Below the pieces are notes generated by a model, which worked only from the letters and a program-made list of their open reading frames with translations, had not been told where the DNA came from and made no database searches. Positions 1 to 5,743 of a stretch of DNA of 64,000 bases are shown here, one piece after another. The DNA comes from an uncultured Verrucomicrobiae bacterium. Lineage in GTDB: Bacteria; Verrucomicrobiota; Verrucomicrobiia; Limisphaerales; Palsa-1400. Position 1 is the first letter of the stretch. Each line of letters begins with the position of its first letter. The stretch spans positions 64,001-128,000 of the forward strand of contig CAVPOM010000017.1 of assembly GCA_963707025.1 (NCBI GenBank). Reading direction: 5' to 3'. The translations under genes and the position numbers were made by a program.

Positions 1-111
1 CGGCCAATCCAGCCCAATCCTCATCGGGGAAATTTTGGGATGCGGATTGAAATAATGATGTATAATGGGAAGGAAAAGCGCTACCATCAAACCAACGGCT
101 CGAATTGTAAT

Positions 112-330
112 ATGACAGCAATCGCCAAGAAGATTGAAGAAGAGATCCAGCATCTGCCATTGGAGGACATGCTGGCTCTCCATGAGCATCTCATCATGTC
201 CATCCATGAACGCGAAGAAGCCCGGAGTCTTGATCCGGCTTTCAGGAACGACATTCAGCGGCGCATAGACGAAATTGATTCCGGTAAAGTTCAAGGCGTG
301 GATGCGCTGGAGGCACTCAAAAAGATGTAA
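112..330 (+). CDS. Addiction-module antitoxin component (TIGR02574-like)
   Basis: MTAIAKKIEEEIQHLPLEDMLALHEHL...DIQRRIDEIDSGKVQGVDALEAL pattern; abuts a RelE/ParE-type gene. Confidence 0.75.
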   Translation: MTAIAKKIEEEIQHLPLEDMLALHEHLIMSIHEREEARSLDPAFRNDIQRRIDEIDSGKVQGVDALEALKKM

Positions 331-575
331 ATGCCGCGCCCAGGCAAACCAGTTCAACTGCACCCGGAAGCGCGAGCCGAGTTGCAGGAATCGGTCAATT
401 TTTACCGGAACCGCGGCGGTGAACACAGGGTGGAGCGGTTCAAACAGCGAGTGGCGGACGGCCTGAATATCATCGCGTCCCAACCGGAAGGCCATCCGCC
501 CGAACCGGGTTTGGTGGGTGTCCAGAGACTGCGGCTCAAGCAATTCCCTTTTTCGGTAGTGGGCTACTTTGAAAT

Positions 576-974
576 TCAGCCATGAAGGCCACATTTGCAA
601 ACCGGGCATATTCGCACGTCTTTTCCCGCCAGCGGGTTTTTGCATTGGGGGCAGACATATTTGACGGCCAGTTTACTGCCCCAATAAATCAATCCCAAAC
701 CAAGGAATATCGGAACAATGAGCCAAAACCCAAAAATAATCACCAGAACGCCTACGCCTTGAATCAGGCACCCGCCCCCGGCCATTTCGATCTTTTTTTC
801 GATTTGATATTCCGGGGCGGTTTGTGGCGTGAAATTTGGCGGGGATTGAGCCTCATCGGCCCACAAGAGGATGTTTTGGCCGCAATGCGGGCATGGTGAT
901 TCCTGCCCTTTTGCCTCACTTGGAAACTCAATCCAACCACCACAACCCCCGCACTTCATTTTTAGGTAATCCAT
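576..974 (-). CDS. Zinc-ribbon membrane protein (IS passenger)
   Basis: CxxC pairs at both ends (CGGC/CPHC; CPQC/CPVC) flanking a hydrophobic two-helix stretch. Confidence 0.7.
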   Translation of the reverse strand: MDYLKMKCGGCGGWIEFPSEAKGQESPCPHCGQNILLWADEAQSPPNFTPQTAPEYQIEKKIEMAGGGCLIQGVGVLVIIFGFWLIVPIFLGLGLIYWGSKLAVKYVCPQCKNPLAGKDVRICPVCKCGLHG

Positions 975-1136
975 ATTAGCATGGTTGACATCGGGCGTTT
1001 TGTGAGATGAAAACCCCTAAACCCTTAATGTCTTTGCACTTAAAAAAAGGAAAAACGGTGCTTGTGATTTGCAACAAACGAACCGCCTCAGTTTCCCTTT
1101 CTGAAAGAATGGTTATTGCCTTCATTTGTGGTTTGG

Positions 1137-1328
1137 CTAGTTCCGTATCAAAGTCAGTATCTTTACGACCTTCCGTTTCGGCAGCCCGGTTTGGAGCTTG
1201 GTATCTCGCAGGGCGATTAAAACCTGCTGATATGCCTCGGCATAACTCAATTGGCGGTAAGCCTTAATATGGAAGGTGATATTGTTTTCGTCGTCTTCAA
1301 AAATAGTCAATATAGGCGGCTCAATCAT
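1137..1328 (-). CDS. Small hypothetical protein coupled to transposase stop
   Basis: ATGA overlap with the transposase stop; 63 aa MIEPPILTIFEDDENN... Confidence 0.55.
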   Translation of the reverse strand: MIEPPILTIFEDDENNITFHIKAYRQLSYAEAYQQVLIALRDTKLQTGLPKRKVVKILTLIRN

Positions 1329-2158
1329 GTGCCAATTAAAGCCACAACCTCTTCCAAAGTCCAGACGTGATCGGTCAAACCGGCTTCCATTGCCGGGGTG
1401 ACGCGCAAGGTTGTGTGAATCCGGCAAAAATTGTAGTGCATGAAGTGGATTGCGGCATGGTGCTTGTGGTTTTCGAGCTTTTTTGAAAAAGCATTCGTAA
1501 GCCGGGTGAACCGCCGATTGCCCATGCGGACGCTCAAGTTTTGCCGTTCAATGTGGCTAGTGGAAACCAAACGGCTGTCTGGATTGCCGCTAATGCGGTT
1601 TTTCCGTGCCCCGATGCAAACGGGCGGGGAATAACGGACTTCTGTGGCCGGGCCGTGTTCGTTGCCGTATAGTTTTACGAGTTGCGCGTAGTCAATCTCA
1701 GAGCCAAAGGCATCCTCCACGGCTTGCACGTAGCATTTCAGCCCGTCTGAGGTCAATTGGACGCGGCTGGCGAGCCTTCCCGCAAGGTCATTGATAAACG
1801 TGTAAGCATCTGTGGCATCCCGCTTCCCGCAATGGAAGCACGGAATCAGCTTTGTGTCGGAATCCATCGCAATCCAAGTCCATGTGTCGCCAAGCCCCTC
1901 CGCGCCTTTCAAATGTTCCGGCACATTGGCTTGCTTGCATCGCGTAAAGCTCCAAAGCTCGTCAACCTGCAAAACCTTGCACGGCAGGCTCCGCATGATT
2001 TTGTCCATGAAAGCGGCACAGGCCGTGCCAGCGGAAACCAGCATTCTTTCCACGGTCTTTTTGGCCGCCCCGGTCAGGCGGGTTGTGGAGCGCATGGAGC
2101 ATCCCTCCACCAGGCAATTGAGGATTTGAGCGCGTTTATCGGTTGCGAGTATATTCAT
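1325..2158 (-). CDS. IS1-family DDE transposase
   Basis: N-terminal HTH (LVEGCSMRSTTRLTG), QVDELWSF, QLTSDG, STSHIERQNLSVRMGNRRFTRLTNAFSKK. Confidence 0.92.
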   Translation of the reverse strand: MNILATDKRAQILNCLVEGCSMRSTTRLTGAAKKTVERMLVSAGTACAAFMDKIMRSLPCKVLQVDELWSFTRCKQANVPEHLKGAEGLGDTWTWIAMDSDTKLIPCFHCGKRDATDAYTFINDLAGRLASRVQLTSDGLKCYVQAVEDAFGSEIDYAQLVKLYGNEHGPATEVRYSPPVCIGARKNRISGNPDSRLVSTSHIERQNLSVRMGNRRFTRLTNAFSKKLENHKHHAAIHFMHYNFCRIHTTLRVTPAMEAGLTDHVWTLEEVVALIGT

Positions 2159-2178: not shown

Positions 2179-2207
2179 ACCATACGTGAACCGCTTTACG
2201 TATGCAA
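2179..2207 (-). promoter_or_regulatory. Sigma70-like promoter of transposase with palindromic operator in the spacer
   Basis: TTGCAT-N17-TATGGT on minus strand, 20 nt upstream of ATG; overlapped by CATACGTGAA-CCGC-TTTACGTATG. Confidence 0.6.
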
Positions 2208-2320: not shown

Positions 2321-2533
2321 ATGAATAGAACAGCCCAAAAATTAGGGCGCATGGCACGCGGCGTTAAAAAGACACTGACGCCAGCCCAACGCCAGGCCGC
2401 CGCTGAACGCGCACGCGGCCTTGCCGCAATACGATGGCGCGGTCATGTCAAAAATACTACCAGAAAAACCTTGCATTCTCACATCCGGCGTGGCAAGATT
2501 GCGCCAGTAAATGGTGGAACCAGTGGGAGTTGA
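2321..2533 (+). CDS. Small basic putative DNA-binding protein (IS passenger)
   Basis: MNRTAQKLGRMARGVKKTLTPAQRQAAAERARGLAAIRW; own promoter; Arg/Lys-rich helical motif. Confidence 0.6.
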   Translation: MNRTAQKLGRMARGVKKTLTPAQRQAAAERARGLAAIRWRGHVKNTTRKTLHSHIRRGKIAPVNGGTSGS

Positions 2534-2607
2534 ACCCTCACTGCTCACACAGTGCCCCTCGCGGTCTAAACCCGCATTACGGCATCCGGCCAACGGGGAC
2601 TGGCCCC
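2512..2607 (-). ncRNA. tRNA-like RNA with 9/3 acceptor/T-stem fold (allo-tRNA-like), G3:U70, A73, encoded CCA
   Basis: GGGGCCAGU pairs with ACUGGUUCC followed by ACCA; T arm GGG-UUCAACU-CCC; D arm CCG-UUGGC-CGG; variable arm with GUGA tetraloop. Confidence 0.75.
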
Positions 2608-3000
2608 ACTATGTTACGCCTACGGCGGTCAGGTTGCCTTACGAGCATTATCACCTGACCGCCGTTGCCCTATGTCTGGCGGTCACGTACGGCGTTTTGA
2701 TTTACGTGAGCGCTATCGTTTTAGTTTCATAATCACAAAAAGAAAACCGCCTCAGTTCCAACTCGAAAAACCCAGGCGGGGCATTTTGGAACCAAAGCGG
2801 TTTCTAGATCAGTTCGCCTGCAAACGGTTTCGAGGCCGTGGGTTTTGACACCCAAAATCAAAGAACAAATTCACCTACACCCGTCGTTTATCAGCGGAGG
2901 CGGGGCAGTCAAGGGTTTTTTATTAAAAACCGAGAGCATCATAAACCGCACCTGGATTTGTGCAAGCACTTATTTTCGTAACATATTGATGTAACAGGTG

Positions 3001-3519
3001 TTACGTATGCTTGATGAGTCTTTTTTTGTGCTTGGTGAGTCCCGTTTGGATGCTTGGTGAGGGCGATTTTATGCTTGGTGAGTGTTTGTTGATGCTAGAT
3101 GAGAATTTTTTGGGTGTTTTTCCCTCTTTTGAAATTTTCTTCAAAACTGGTTTTTTGGTGTGTTTCCACCGTGCTGCCGCCGCAATCTTTGCCCTTCTAT
3201 GGCGTCTGAGTCGTGACCACTGAAAGAATATCCACTCCATATTAAGATATTCATCATTGGTAAACCCGTGTTCGCTGTAATGCTTTACGATTGTTTCCGC
3301 TGTCCAATTTCCATCCCTAAACTTTGGGTTTGTCATCTCTATGATTGCCTCGTGAGGTGGAAGTGTTGGAGGAGTTAAAAGGCGCTGCTTCCACCAGGGA
3401 AGAAAATCCAGAAAGAATTTCATCCGTCGTTTGAGTGTGCGAGCACTTCCGATCTGACCGCCCACAATTCGCCTCAGAAATTCATTGAGGCTCACCGGGA
3501 AGATCAAAGGCTTAGGCAC
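3001..3519 (-). CDS. Hypothetical protein with AKIAAAARW motif; 3' end contains a direct-repeat array
   Basis: 172-aa ORF in low-GC cargo; basic low-complexity tail. Confidence 0.55.
   Translation of the reverse strand: MPKPLIFPVSLNEFLRRIVGGQIGSARTLKRRMKFFLDFLPWWKQRLLTPPTLPPHEAIIEMTNPKFRDGNWTAETIVKHYSEHGFTNDEYLNMEWIFFQWSRLRRHRRAKIAAAARWKHTKKPVLKKISKEGKTPKKFSSSINKHSPSIKSPSPSIQTGLTKHKKRLIKHT
3008..3103. repeat. Five 11-bp direct repeats TGCTTGGTGAG at 21-22 bp period (iteron-like)
   Basis: Copies start at 3008, 3029, 3051, 3072, 3093; three exact, two variant. Confidence 0.85.
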
Positions 3520-3562: not shown

Positions 3563-3697
3563 TTACCGCTTTTTCTTGGGTTTTTTGACGGGCGGGGCGA
3601 TAATTGGCTGGTTGCTCAGGGCGATCACGTCCTGCATGATGGAGTGCATCCGCATGTTGGCGTCTGCCGGGCGACGTTTTTTGGCTTGTTTCGTCAT
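3563..3697 (-). CDS. 44-aa basic peptide near the IS end (below ORF-track cutoff)
   Basis: MTKQAKKRRPADANMRMHSIMQDVIALSNQPIIAPPVKKPKKKR*; TGGTAAGCT extended -10-like box just upstream. Confidence 0.5.
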   Translation of the reverse strand: MTKQAKKRRPADANMRMHSIMQDVIALSNQPIIAPPVKKPKKKR

Positions 3698-4252
3698 GCC
3701 GCCAGCTTACCATGCCAGGGCGGGCGGGCGAAAAGAAAATTCAAAGTAGCCCACTACCCCTTTTTCCCTTATCTTTGTCAACCGAACTGAGTATGTTTGG
3801 GTGGTGGCCGTCGCTCATGGAAGCCAGGCGTCCGGGCTATTGGAAAAATCGAATTGCGGAAGTCGGCCCATGACACAGCGGCCAACGGCACCTTTGGAGT
3901 GAGTCGCCTTTGACGGCGCTAAAACATCCGCCCATAGATGGCATCTTCCGGATTATTCCAGAATTCGAAGGCCGGTTCTGCCAACCGGGACCAGGCCAAA
4001 TCGTCCAGCGAGATCTTCAGATGCCGCGGGAGAATTCGGAGCAACTCCACCTGCTCTTTCACATCCAGTGAGGTGGACCCCATCCTTTAGACCACGGAGC
4101 GCGGAGAATAAGATAGACTCTGGAGGTCCGCTGTCATTTGTATTTTTGTTTGTCTGTTGTTCATTCCGCGCTTCCAAACCCTTTCGAAAGAGAGAACGAG
4201 CCGCGCCTGGCACCGCCCGTCCTCCCTCTCCGTTTTCTTAGGGTTTCCAACC

Positions 4253-5158
4253 TTACCGCCGCAGGCGGTCTGATTTCAAGTTTTTCCGGCCGGCCGAGCC
4301 CTCCTTGGGCTGCATCGCTTCCCATCGGGCCGGTTGGGCTCCGTAGGCCCCGGGATCAGAATACACGGCCGCGGGCGTCGCATAGTGCAAAGCCGCGTGC
4401 GGACGCAACCGGTTGTAATCCTCAAACCAGCGCGCCAGCCCGCGCCCGGCCTCGATCCCGTCCAGGTAATCTTGCAGATATATGTCCTCATGCTTGACGC
4501 TCCGCCACAACCGCTCGATAAACCGGTTGTCCATCCACCGCCCCCGGCCATCCATGCTCACGTCCACCCCCGCCGATTCCACCGCGTCAATATACAGCGG
4601 CGAAGTGAACTGCGACCCCTGGTCGGTGTTGGCGATCAGCGGGGCCTTCCGCCCGCTCTGCAGCGCCGCTTCCCAGGCGTCCACGCAGAAGGCGCTCTCC
4701 AACGTGTTGCTCAAGCGCCACGCCAGCACATACCGGCTCCACCAATCCATCACCGCCACCAGATACATAAACCCCTGTGCCATCGGCACATAGGTGATGT
4801 CCGCGCACCAAGCCTGATCGGGCCCGGTGATCTCCAACTCGCCCAACAGATACGGATAGATCTGATGGCCCGGCCCCGGCAGGCTGGTCCGGGGTTTGCG
4901 GTAGATGGCCTCGATGCCCATGACCCGCAACAGCCGCACCACCCGCTTGCGATTGACTTCCCAGCCCTCCCGGCCCAACAGCACCCGCAACTTGCGGCTG
5001 CCATAGACCGGATGGTCCAAGTGCAACTGGTCCAAACGCCGCATCAGCGCCAGATTCTCCGGCGTCTCGGGGCACGGTTGGTAATAGTAACTGCTCCGGC
5101 ATAAATCCAGCAGGTCGCACTGATGCCGCACGCTCACCTGCGCATCCGGGCCGACCAA
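4253..5158 (-). CDS. IS3 transposase OrfB (integrase-core DDE); OrfAB probably made by -1 frameshift
   Basis: WCADITY, NTDQGSQFTS, DNRFIERLWRSVKHE; A9 slippery run at 5194-5202. Confidence 0.92.
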   Translation of the reverse strand: MVGPDAQVSVRHQCDLLDLCRSSYYYQPCPETPENLALMRRLDQLHLDHPVYGSRKLRVLLGREGWEVNRKRVVRLLRVMGIEAIYRKPRTSLPGPGHQIYPYLLGELEITGPDQAWCADITYVPMAQGFMYLVAVMDWWSRYVLAWRLSNTLESAFCVDAWEAALQSGRKAPLIANTDQGSQFTSPLYIDAVESAGVDVSMDGRGRWMDNRFIERLWRSVKHEDIYLQDYLDGIEAGRGLARWFEDYNRLRPHAALHYATPAAVYSDPGAYGAQPARWEAMQPKEGSAGRKNLKSDRLRR

Positions 5159-5172
5159 CTCCGCCAGGCTCT

Positions 5173-5463
5173 TTAAAGGCCCAGTTGTTTGGATTTTTTT
5201 TTCAGCCAGTCCAGGTCCACCGTCAACTGCCCGATCTTCTGGTGCAATTGCCCGATCAACTCCTCCTGGTCTGCGCTGCCCGCATGCCCCGCCTCAAACA
5301 GGTCGGGCAACCGGTCGCGAATCGTCGCTTTCCATTGCGTGACCTGGGTCGGATGCACCGCGTACTCTCGCGCCAGCTGCGCGACCGTCTTAAGCCCCAC
5401 CAGGGCTTCGAATCCCACTTTGGCCTTGAAGGCCGCACTGTGCCGCTTCCGTTTTGTTTTCAT
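5173..5463 (-). CDS. IS3 transposase OrfA (HTH)
   Basis: RKRHSAAFKAKV...VHPTQVTQWK...IGQLTVDLDWLKKKS. Confidence 0.92.
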   Translation of the reverse strand: MKTKRKRHSAAFKAKVGFEALVGLKTVAQLAREYAVHPTQVTQWKATIRDRLPDLFEAGHAGSADQEELIGQLHQKIGQLTVDLDWLKKKSKQLGL

Positions 5464-5743
5464 CAGTCTGCTTTCTCTCATTTCCAGCAGACCAACAAAA
5501 GTCTATCTTCTTCAGCAGTGGTCTAGTTTTTGGGGACCCCCTCACAGTTTATCAATGGCCGCGCTGATTTCGACGACAGTGCTCATACCGAAACGTTATC
5601 GCTCACTGAGAGTAAAAGCAAGCCGCCAAACCGCTCTCCGCACGAAGTTTAAATCATAACGACGCGCTTCGTTTCCGCTCGCGCCTCCAAAAAAAACTGG
5701 CGCAGCCCGCCCTCTTCACCCAACATCCCTGCGTTCGACTGGC

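What the first reader, a model, noticed from the sequence alone, without database searches (positions are those of the whole stretch)
2512..2607. 96-nt tRNA-like RNA with 9/3 fold, alanine identity elements and extended anticodon arm inside a transposon
Seen (minus strand): GGGGCCAGU CC CCG-UUGGC-CGG A UGCC-GUAAU-GCGG-GUUUAGA-CCGC-GAGG-GGCA CUGU-GUGA-GCAG UGA GGG-UUCAACU-CCC ACUGGUUCC A CCA. This gives a 9-bp acceptor stem plus a 3-bp T stem (12 bp in total), GG in the D loop, a UUCAACU T loop, a GNRA-capped variable arm, G3:U70, discriminator A and encoded CCA. The anticodon arm is lengthened by an internal loop and ends in a 7-nt loop centred on UUA. Known: 8/4 and 9/3 allo-tRNAs exist; G3:U70 with A73 are AlaRS determinants; phage P1 C4 and P4 CI are RNase P-processed regulatory RNAs. 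Inference: an RNase P-processed, possibly alanylated tRNA mimic that regulates the element or acts as a decoy. Stop suppression is less likely given the distorted arm. It lies upstream of and co-oriented with the transposase and overlaps the 3' end of ORF 2321-2533 in antisense.
Basis: partly seen in the sequence, partly recalled or inferred. Interest (0 to 1): 0.9.

Follow-up and report, generated by a model that had tools for sequence, protein, structure and literature searches.

The report
Rewired tRNA with built-in antisense silencer
A small transposon carries an oddly rewired, alanine-type tRNA that probably reads stop codons, paired with its own opposite-strand promoter and terminator, which looks like an all-RNA poison-and-antidote switch that related transposons fill with many different mismatched tRNAs.

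Summary
The 96-nt RNA at 2607-2512 (-) is real and conserved: 11 distinct homologs, 77-96% identical. The 9-bp acceptor, 3-bp T stem, G3:U70 and A73 hold in 11 of 11. The supported fold (327 of 330 cells paired; equal to the window's MFE) is rewired: nt 10-13 pair with 50-53, a GG hairpin branches off, and an invariant 4-bp stem carries a UUA-centred loop. It lies in a 3.2-kb IS1-like transposon (22-bp TIRs, 8-bp target duplication) inserted in parE. Related IS1-like elements and one IS1595 element carry the same frame around other tRNA-like RNAs, mostly with mismatched identity and anticodon. A genome-wide scan found 3 such modules among 65 tRNA-like hits, all before transposases. Best reading: an RNA-only toxin-antitoxin-like module in which an alanylated ochre-suppressor-like tRNA is held down by cis-antisense RNA (0.45). 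Expression, charging and toxicity are untested. Closest known: 9/3 allo-tRNAs (PMC5389517).

The parts
2512..2607 (-). 96-nt tRNA-like RNA. Acceptor 2607-2599:2524-2516 (G3:U70); P2 2598-2595:2558-2555; D-like hairpin 2592-2580 (loop with GG); anticodon-like hairpin 2575-2561 with UUA at 2569-2567; V arm 2554-2539; T arm 2537-2525; A73 at 2515; CCA 2514-2512
2471..2499 (+). Predicted antisense sigma70-like promoter: -35 at 2471-2476, 17-nt spacer, TG-extended -10 at 2494-2499; start near 2506-2507
   Evidence: window score 7.4, reached by 7.3% of locus windows; same position in homologs
2506..2675 (+). Predicted antisense RNA of about 165 nt covering the whole tRNA-like RNA (inferred, not observed)
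   Evidence: inference
2622..2665 (+). Long hairpin (-26.6 kcal/mol), terminator-like on the + strand; U tail weak here (4 of 8), 5-7 of 8 in most homologs
   Evidence: (I12)
2679..2713 (-). Second leader hairpin of the sense precursor; a similar hairpin is seen by eye in most homologs
2744..2803 (-). Upstream hairpin followed by a T run on the - strand; also in L002
   Evidence: (I21)
555..576 (.). Terminal inverted repeat
   Evidence: I1; same TIR in C14, L093, L002
3737..3758 (.). Terminal inverted repeat
   Evidence: I1
547..554 (.). 8-bp target-site duplication, left copy
3759..3766 (.). 8-bp target-site duplication, right copy
1325..2158 (-). IS1-like DDE transposase, 277 aa, no internal stop
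   Evidence: NF033558 E 5e-13, 49 bits, below the 100-bit cut-off
2321..2533 (+). Small basic ORF divergent from the transposase, with its own promoter-like site at 2286-2313; probable regulator. In other homologs an unrelated RHH-like ORF ends at the same place (family by eye)
3001..3519 (-). Passenger ORF, 172 aa, no family hit
3563..3697 (-). 44-aa basic ORF next to the TIR; this region is shared with C14 and L002
576..974 (-). Passenger ORF with Zn-ribbon motifs and a hydrophobic stretch
331..554 (+). 5' part of the parE gene interrupted by the element; antitoxin gene at 40-330; the rest of parE follows 3766

Best explanation
The transposon carries an RNA-only toxin-antitoxin-like module. 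A sense precursor (leader hairpins plus tRNA) is cut by RNase P and trimmed or CCA-repaired to the 96-nt RNA. Its 12-bp acceptor-T branch with G3:U70 and A73 is charged by host AlaRS. The rewired core presents GG to the T loop and a UUA loop at about normal distance, so it acts as a weak alanine-inserting suppressor of UAA/UAG and harms the proteome if unchecked. A short antisense RNA from the promoter past the CCA to the upstream terminator pairs with the whole tRNA and holds it down. Losing the element, or shutting off host transcription as in phage infection, frees the stable tRNA. Shown: conservation, fold, position in the transposon, enrichment of the antisense signals, a swappable slot. 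Inferred: transcription of either strand, processing, charging, decoding, toxicity.
For: Fold: 327/330 cells paired; 30 G-U cells against 3 A-C cells mark this strand as the structured one. Antisense frame: TTG at the -35 position in 10/11 family members and 9/9 other cargo RNAs, against 15/74 ARAGORN tRNAs of the genome; hairpin of -20 kcal/mol or less with U tail in 10/11 and 7/9 against 6/74. Genome-wide scan: 3 of 65 acceptor+T-arm hits have the full frame, all three directly upstream of a transposase; the third (C10, IS1595, 110 bits over a 75-bit cut-off) was not used to define the frame. In 104 loci picked by transposase, 12 of 18 upstream same-strand hits have the frame against 2 of 10 elsewhere. 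The frame persists where no ORF lies between tRNA and transposase (C14, L010-L012; 45-77 nt). Other cargos look built to mistranslate, with identity read by eye from recalled rules: G3:U70 with UUA (L009, L107, L118), G3:U70 with GUA (L056), long V arm and G73 with GUA or UGU (L011, L012, L106), G-1:C73 with AGU (L010). Natural 9/3 G3:U70 allo-tRNAs insert Ala once given an amber anticodon, and mismatched allo-tRNAs kill E. coli when induced (PMC5389517).
Against: No expression data for either strand. The loop has G32 and G or C at 37 (4 and 7 of 11), unlike working tRNAs (recalled: pyrimidine 32, purine 37), and the stem is only 4 bp. CCA is encoded in 4 of 11. Some cargos (C14, L053, L131) lack a normal anticodon arm, so decoding may not be the shared function. 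Family promoter scores are modest (median 4.6; three members at or below 3.8), and in several members the -35 overlaps an ORF end (Ala-Leu-Leu codons). The window's own U tail is weak (4/8). No conserved sense promoter was found. Thresholds were set after seeing the family, and kin are not independent. Most distant transposase loci have no such RNA (8 of 92 below 65% identity). Allo-tRNA(UAU) species near transposons were inactive in translation.
Confidence: 0.45

Rival explanations
1. Non-decoding decoy. The RNA is processed and alanylated, or mimics the tRNA/tmRNA elbow, and titrates or shields against a protein (AlaRS, EF-Tu, SmpB or an anticodon nuclease); the antisense RNA is its off-switch.
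For: Acceptor, T loop and D-loop GG are invariant while positions 32 and 37 are non-canonical. Several cargos keep only an alanine acceptor and T arm (C14, L131, L053). Weak tmRNA-model hits: 12-18 bits for 4 family members, 26-29 bits for C14, L107 and L131, against a gathering score of 47.
Against: UUA is kept in 11/11 and recurs with G3:U70 in unrelated 7/5 bodies in the same slot. Many cargos are full cloverleaves with mismatched anticodons.
Confidence: 0.22
2. Cis control of transposition. The tRNA mimic is an RNase P processing or insulator signal in the transposase leader, and the antisense RNA represses transposase, like IS10 RNA-OUT (recalled).
For: 7 of 11 family members lie co-oriented upstream of the transposase; 10 of 12 loci with a transposase of at least 65% identity carry a tRNA-like RNA there, three rows being one element.
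Against: The module is kept in a TIR-bounded element without transposase (L002), divergent from it (L095), and with none found nearby (L098). The predicted antisense RNA stops 45-560 nt short of the transposase start. G3:U70 and UUA are not needed for RNase P cleavage (recalled).
Confidence: 0.17
3. The + strand RNA is the product (an anti-tRNA or anti-tmRNA sRNA, or just the end of the small regulator's mRNA), and the tRNA look is secondary.
For: Promoter and terminator signals are clearer on the + strand than on the - strand. The + RNA would partly match the host tmRNA 3' end (weak hit at C4:292282).
Against: G-U pairs favour the - strand 30 to 3. T loop, discriminator and identity pair make sense only on the - strand. 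No peptide is conserved on the + strand.
Confidence: 0.1
4. A decayed captured tRNA or tmRNA fragment, or an attachment-site remnant, without function.
For: The single-sequence fold is not better than shuffles. The distribution is patchy: 4 of 31 genomes in the family, none in 150 others of the order.
Against: Compensatory changes in four helices while the flanks diverge. No close host tRNA.
Confidence: 0.03

Closest known systems
9/3 allo-tRNAs with G3:U70 and UUA anticodon (Mukai et al., PMC5389517)
   Same: 9/3 acceptor-T branch, long V arm, G3:U70, UUA; found near transposon-related genes and TA systems. By eye, the anticodon-to-V segment of supplement row 647 resembles this family.
   Different: Here nt 10-13 pair with the strand 3' of the anticodon arm, the D-like hairpin is a side branch with a 5-nt loop, the anticodon stem is 4 bp and the loop has G32 and G/C37. 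Family motifs are absent from their supplement (positive control found). The word 'antisense' does not occur in their main text.
Type VIII (RNA toxin, RNA antitoxin) TA systems: SdsR-RyeA, CreTA
   Same: RNA toxin with RNA antitoxin (classification from PMC11951105 passages); SdsR and RyeA are cis-antisense (recalled).
   Different: The proposed toxin is itself a chargeable tRNA-like RNA in a swappable slot of IS1/IS1595-type transposons. CreT sequesters a tRNA and is CRISPR-controlled (recalled).
tmRNA tRNA-like domain
   Same: G3:U70, A73 and a similar T loop and 3' end; weak model hits.
   Different: No mRNA-like domain, 9/3 rather than 7/5, far below the gathering score; the host has its own tmRNA.
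Type II TA pairs at a fixed position in Tn3-family transposons (PMC7157771, abstract and outline only)
   Same: A TA-like module at a fixed place beside the transposition genes, exchanged between elements.
   Different: Those are protein pairs in Tn3; this is RNA-only in IS1/IS1595-type elements.
Phage P1 C4 / P4 CI RNAs
   Same: RNase P-processed structured RNAs in mobile elements (recalled).
   Different: No Rfam match; this RNA has an aminoacylation-type acceptor.

Membership tests
9/3 allo-tRNA | 12-bp acceptor branch split 9/3 | tested here: met
   99/99 and 33/33 cells paired
9/3 allo-tRNA | Long variable arm | tested here: met
   6-bp stem, 63/66 cells, compensatory changes
9/3 allo-tRNA | tRNA-Sec-like long D stem with tetraloop inside a cloverleaf | tested here: not met
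   4-bp side hairpin with 5-nt loop inside a three-way junction closed by P2
9/3 allo-tRNA | Longer-than-canonical anticodon stem | tested here: not met
   4 bp invariant
9/3 allo-tRNA | Aminoacylated and used on ribosomes | not testable with these tools
   needs charging and reporter assays
tmRNA | mRNA-like domain with tag; Rfam gathering score 47 | tested here: not met
   95-96 nt, 12-18 bits; ARAGORN none
Canonical tRNA (RF00005) | 7/5 cloverleaf detected by ARAGORN or Rfam | tested here: not met
Type VIII TA | Antitoxin is an RNA complementary to, or repressing, the toxin RNA | tested here: inconclusive
   Promoter and terminator signals enriched; transcript not observed
Type VIII TA | The RNA is toxic when unopposed | not testable with these tools
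   only analogy to toxic allo-tRNAs
C4/CI antisense RNA | Rfam C4 model match | tested here: not met
IS1 family (host element) | IS1-type DDE transposase above the curated cut-off | tested here: inconclusive
   best hit NF033558, E 5e-13, 49 of 100 bits
IS1 family (host element) | Short TIRs and 8-9-bp target duplication (recalled definition) | tested here: met
   22-bp TIRs, 8-bp duplication

The most novel reading that the evidence does not exclude
IS1/IS1595-type transposons carry an RNA-only addiction or abortive-defence cassette whose toxin is a deliberately mis-decoding tRNA (any anticodon-blind identity with a wrong anticodon) silenced by a dedicated antisense tRNA transcript. This member uses a strand-swapped tRNA core, not found in my searches, that still reaches the ribosome and reads stop codons as alanine.
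Probability: 0.35. Interest if true: 0.92.

Novelty: new variant of a known kind. Interest (0 to 1): 0.8.

Why it matters
It offers a testable answer to a question left open in PMC5389517: why irregular, sometimes toxic tRNAs sit beside transposons. They may be the toxin half of an RNA-RNA module. It adds a tRNA topology in which the D-stem position is filled by a strand-swapped helix, a direct test of how far ribosome, EF-Tu, RNase P and AlaRS tolerate rewiring. The promoter-terminator frame also gives a way to find such RNAs, which ARAGORN and Rfam miss, and a natural source of suppressor scaffolds.

Tried and rejected
Expression: the one run search, on homolog L004, gave no RNA holder listed. 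Contigs of three same-study RNA runs gave no spanning piece; one contig covers L004:1510-1583 with 8 differences and shows no strand or ends. Not used as evidence. Viral contigs: four patterns, 0 hits. Plasmids and phages: no blastn match. Model R1: 0 of 150 other genomes of the order with strict filters. Phylum pattern: 1 of 401, a coding-sequence chance hit. Attempt to find Mukai-type allo-tRNAs in Acidobacteria to test the frame: 0 of 5 and 1 of 301 genomes, the one a chance hit; 13 of the 15 tRNA-Sec-model loci examined were ordinary tRNAs without the frame. So whether published allo-tRNAs share the frame is open. IS1595 relatives: none of 11 other loci showed the frame. A peptide toxin on the + strand (ORF 2511-2732) is rejected as not conserved. 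A conserved sense promoter was not found. Automatic alignments misregister the D-like hairpin by one column (56% and 39% paired); the 44/44 comes from segment-wise register. The first V-arm split was wrong for 3 sequences and was corrected. One search timed out and was redone. The loose scan gave false hits and was replaced. Literature searches with no matching paper; one search gave one review whose title is unrelated and eight general papers (listing only, except PMC11951105). Subscription papers and bioRxiv supplements were not searchable, and the figures of PMC5389517 (Fig. 4A, S5 five-stem junctions) could not be seen and may bear on novelty.

Full report
Observation. The sequence is as described at 2607-2512 on the minus strand. 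ARAGORN and Rfam do not detect it, and its fold alone is not better than shuffles (z -1.06). It lies in a 3,204-bp element bounded by 22-bp inverted repeats (555-576, 3737-3758) with an 8-bp target duplication. The element has interrupted the parE gene of a parDE-type pair. The transposase (2158-1325) is IS1-like but below the curated cut-off. The closest transposase loci come from Verrucomicrobiia assemblies.

Homologs. A DNA search of 60 relatives found three full-length homologs. A pattern scan of metagenomes gave 12 loci. After removing identical copies there are 11 distinct RNAs, 77-96% identical. The model built from four of them finds 4 of 31 genomes in the family and none of 150 others in the order, so the RNA is patchy and mobile. 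Seven of the 11 lie co-oriented upstream of the transposase, one is divergent from it (L095), one is in a TIR-bounded element lacking it (L002), and two have none in the DNA held (L098; L100 is a short contig).

Fold. The supported structure is: acceptor 1-9:84-92 (99/99); P2 10-13:50-53 (44/44, with U-A/C-G swaps at two pairs); a side hairpin 16-19:25-28 (44/44, three sequence versions) whose 5-nt loop keeps GG; an invariant 4-bp stem with loop G-U-UUA-(G/C)-A; a 6-bp V arm (63/66); and a 3-bp T stem (33/33). In all, 327 of 330 cells pair, and for the window this structure equals the MFE (-40.5 kcal/mol). The side-hairpin count uses a segment-wise register; automatic alignments shift it by one column. 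The shuffle control gave 0 of 500 reaching the observed covariation, which is not a probability for related sequences. G-U cells outnumber A-C cells 30 to 3, so this strand is the structured one. The strand 44-53 is 10 nt in all 11, and 14:49 is U-A in 8 of 11 (read). I infer that P2 and the anticodon-like stem stack into an arm of about 10 steps, like the D plus anticodon stack of a normal tRNA, with the GG hairpin folding back on the T loop. That geometry is inference. G3:U70 and A73 are invariant; CCA is encoded in 4 of 11.

Antisense frame. Every member has a long hairpin shortly before its 5' end, mostly followed by U residues when read on the opposite strand, and a TTG-led sigma70-like site pointing into the RNA from just past its 3' end. 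Scored with recalled sigma70 frequencies: TTG at the -35 position in 10/11 family members, 9/9 other cargo RNAs and 15/74 ARAGORN tRNAs of the genome; hairpin of -20 kcal/mol or less with a U tail in 10/11, 7/9 and 6/74; median promoter scores 4.6, 9.4 and 1.8. The position window was set after seeing the family, and kin are not independent, so the printed P values overstate. A genome-wide scan found the full frame in 3 of 65 tRNA-like hits: the window, the sister element on C14, and a 'tRNA-Asp' on C10 that turned out to sit directly before an IS1595 transposase. Among 104 loci chosen by transposase, 12 of 18 upstream same-strand hits carry the frame against 2 of 10 elsewhere. The 18 include three rows of one element, two doubtful hits and three loci already seen by RNA search. 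Thirteen ordinary acidobacterial tRNAs lacked it. In the window the signals are moderate (promoter reached by 7.3% of windows; U tail 4 of 8), and the hairpin could also end the small regulator's mRNA. But the frame persists where no ORF fits between tRNA and transposase (C14, L010-L012).

A swappable slot. The sister element on C14 has the same TIRs and nearly the same hairpin but a different G3:U70/A73/CCA RNA. Other elements carry 7/5 tRNAs with G3:U70 and UUA (L009, L107, L118), G3:U70 and GUA (L056), a long V arm and G73 with GUA or UGU (L011, L012, L106), G-1:C73 with AGU (L010), or minimal alanine-acceptor mimics (L005, L053, L131). Identity assignments are by eye from recalled rules: these are synthetases that largely ignore the anticodon, paired with non-cognate anticodons. 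In all UUA cargos position 37 is G or C, never A, which would avoid the MiaA A36-A37-A38 site and weaken suppression (recalled rule, inference). One further such case, L137, rests on genome G334, marked unpublished; no conclusion depends on it. Ten of 12 loci with transposases at least 65% identical carry a tRNA-like RNA upstream, against 8 of 92 more distant ones.

Mechanism. Best reading (0.45): an RNA-only toxin-antitoxin-like module whose toxin is an alanylated, weak stop-suppressing tRNA and whose antitoxin is the cis-antisense transcript. UAA and UAG end 1,457 of 3,317 long reading frames in this genome, so readthrough would matter. Against decoding stand G32, G/C37, the short stem and cargos without a proper anticodon arm, which favour a charged decoy (0.22). 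Cis control of the transposase (0.17) is weakened by members without a downstream transposase. No expression evidence was obtained.

Known systems. PMC5389517 (read: parts 2 and 3 of 5 of the text, passages, supplement part 1 and term searches; figures not seen) describes 9/3 allo-tRNAs with G3:U70 and UUA that insert Ala as amber variants, toxic mismatched allo-tRNAs, and an association with transposons and TA systems. This family's motifs are not in its table, though one row resembles the anticodon-to-V segment by eye, so this is probably a derived branch. It meets the 9/3 and V-arm criteria but not the D-stem and anticodon-stem criteria, so I do not file it as a member. PMC7609411, PMC7590224 and PMC11951105 were seen as passages, PMC7157771 as abstract and outline. 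Searches found no paper on a tRNA with a dedicated antisense unit in IS elements; subscription literature was not covered.

Verdict. New variant of a known kind; interest 0.8.

Noticed in passing
window 40-554 and 3767 onward: A parDE-type TA pair whose toxin gene is split by the transposon insertion.
   Followed up: partly
window about 4068-5545: A second insertion sequence (IS3-type by Pfam domains; two ORFs, 5481-5173 and 5158-4253, imperfect inverted repeats) right beside the element, before purS.
   Followed up: partly
G000:C10:131668-132611 (L141): A 'tRNA-Asp(GUC)' with a Leu-like D arm and A73 inside the same antisense frame, upstream of an IS1595 transposase and divergent from a DNA methyltransferase-like gene; its hairpin is nearly that of L002.
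   Followed up: partly
G000:C14:279242-282259 (L124): Sister transposon with the same TIRs, an 8-bp duplication and a different 70-nt alanine-acceptor RNA; a clear sense promoter-like site about 140 nt upstream.
   Followed up: partly
L116, about 1088 nt upstream of the transposase, opposite strand: Another short G-rich tRNA-like RNA with A73 and a strong antisense promoter score but no hairpin called.
   Followed up: no
window 2182-2206, 2256-2282, 2292-2308: Repeated motifs between the transposase and the small divergent ORF, likely operator sites.
   Followed up: no
window 1072-1093 and 2736-2757: A 22-nt repeat shared between the hairpin upstream of the RNA and a site downstream of the transposase.
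   Followed up: no
window 3006-3119: Short imperfect tandem repeats in the 3' end of the 172-aa passenger ORF.
   Followed up: no
G000 C2:106545-112159, C8:72468-81806, C4:150761-153834: Large tRNA arrays with unusual T loops; part of my 74-tRNA control set.
   Followed up: no
L011: The tRNA module occurs twice, about 1.7 kb apart, with identical sequence.
   Followed up: no
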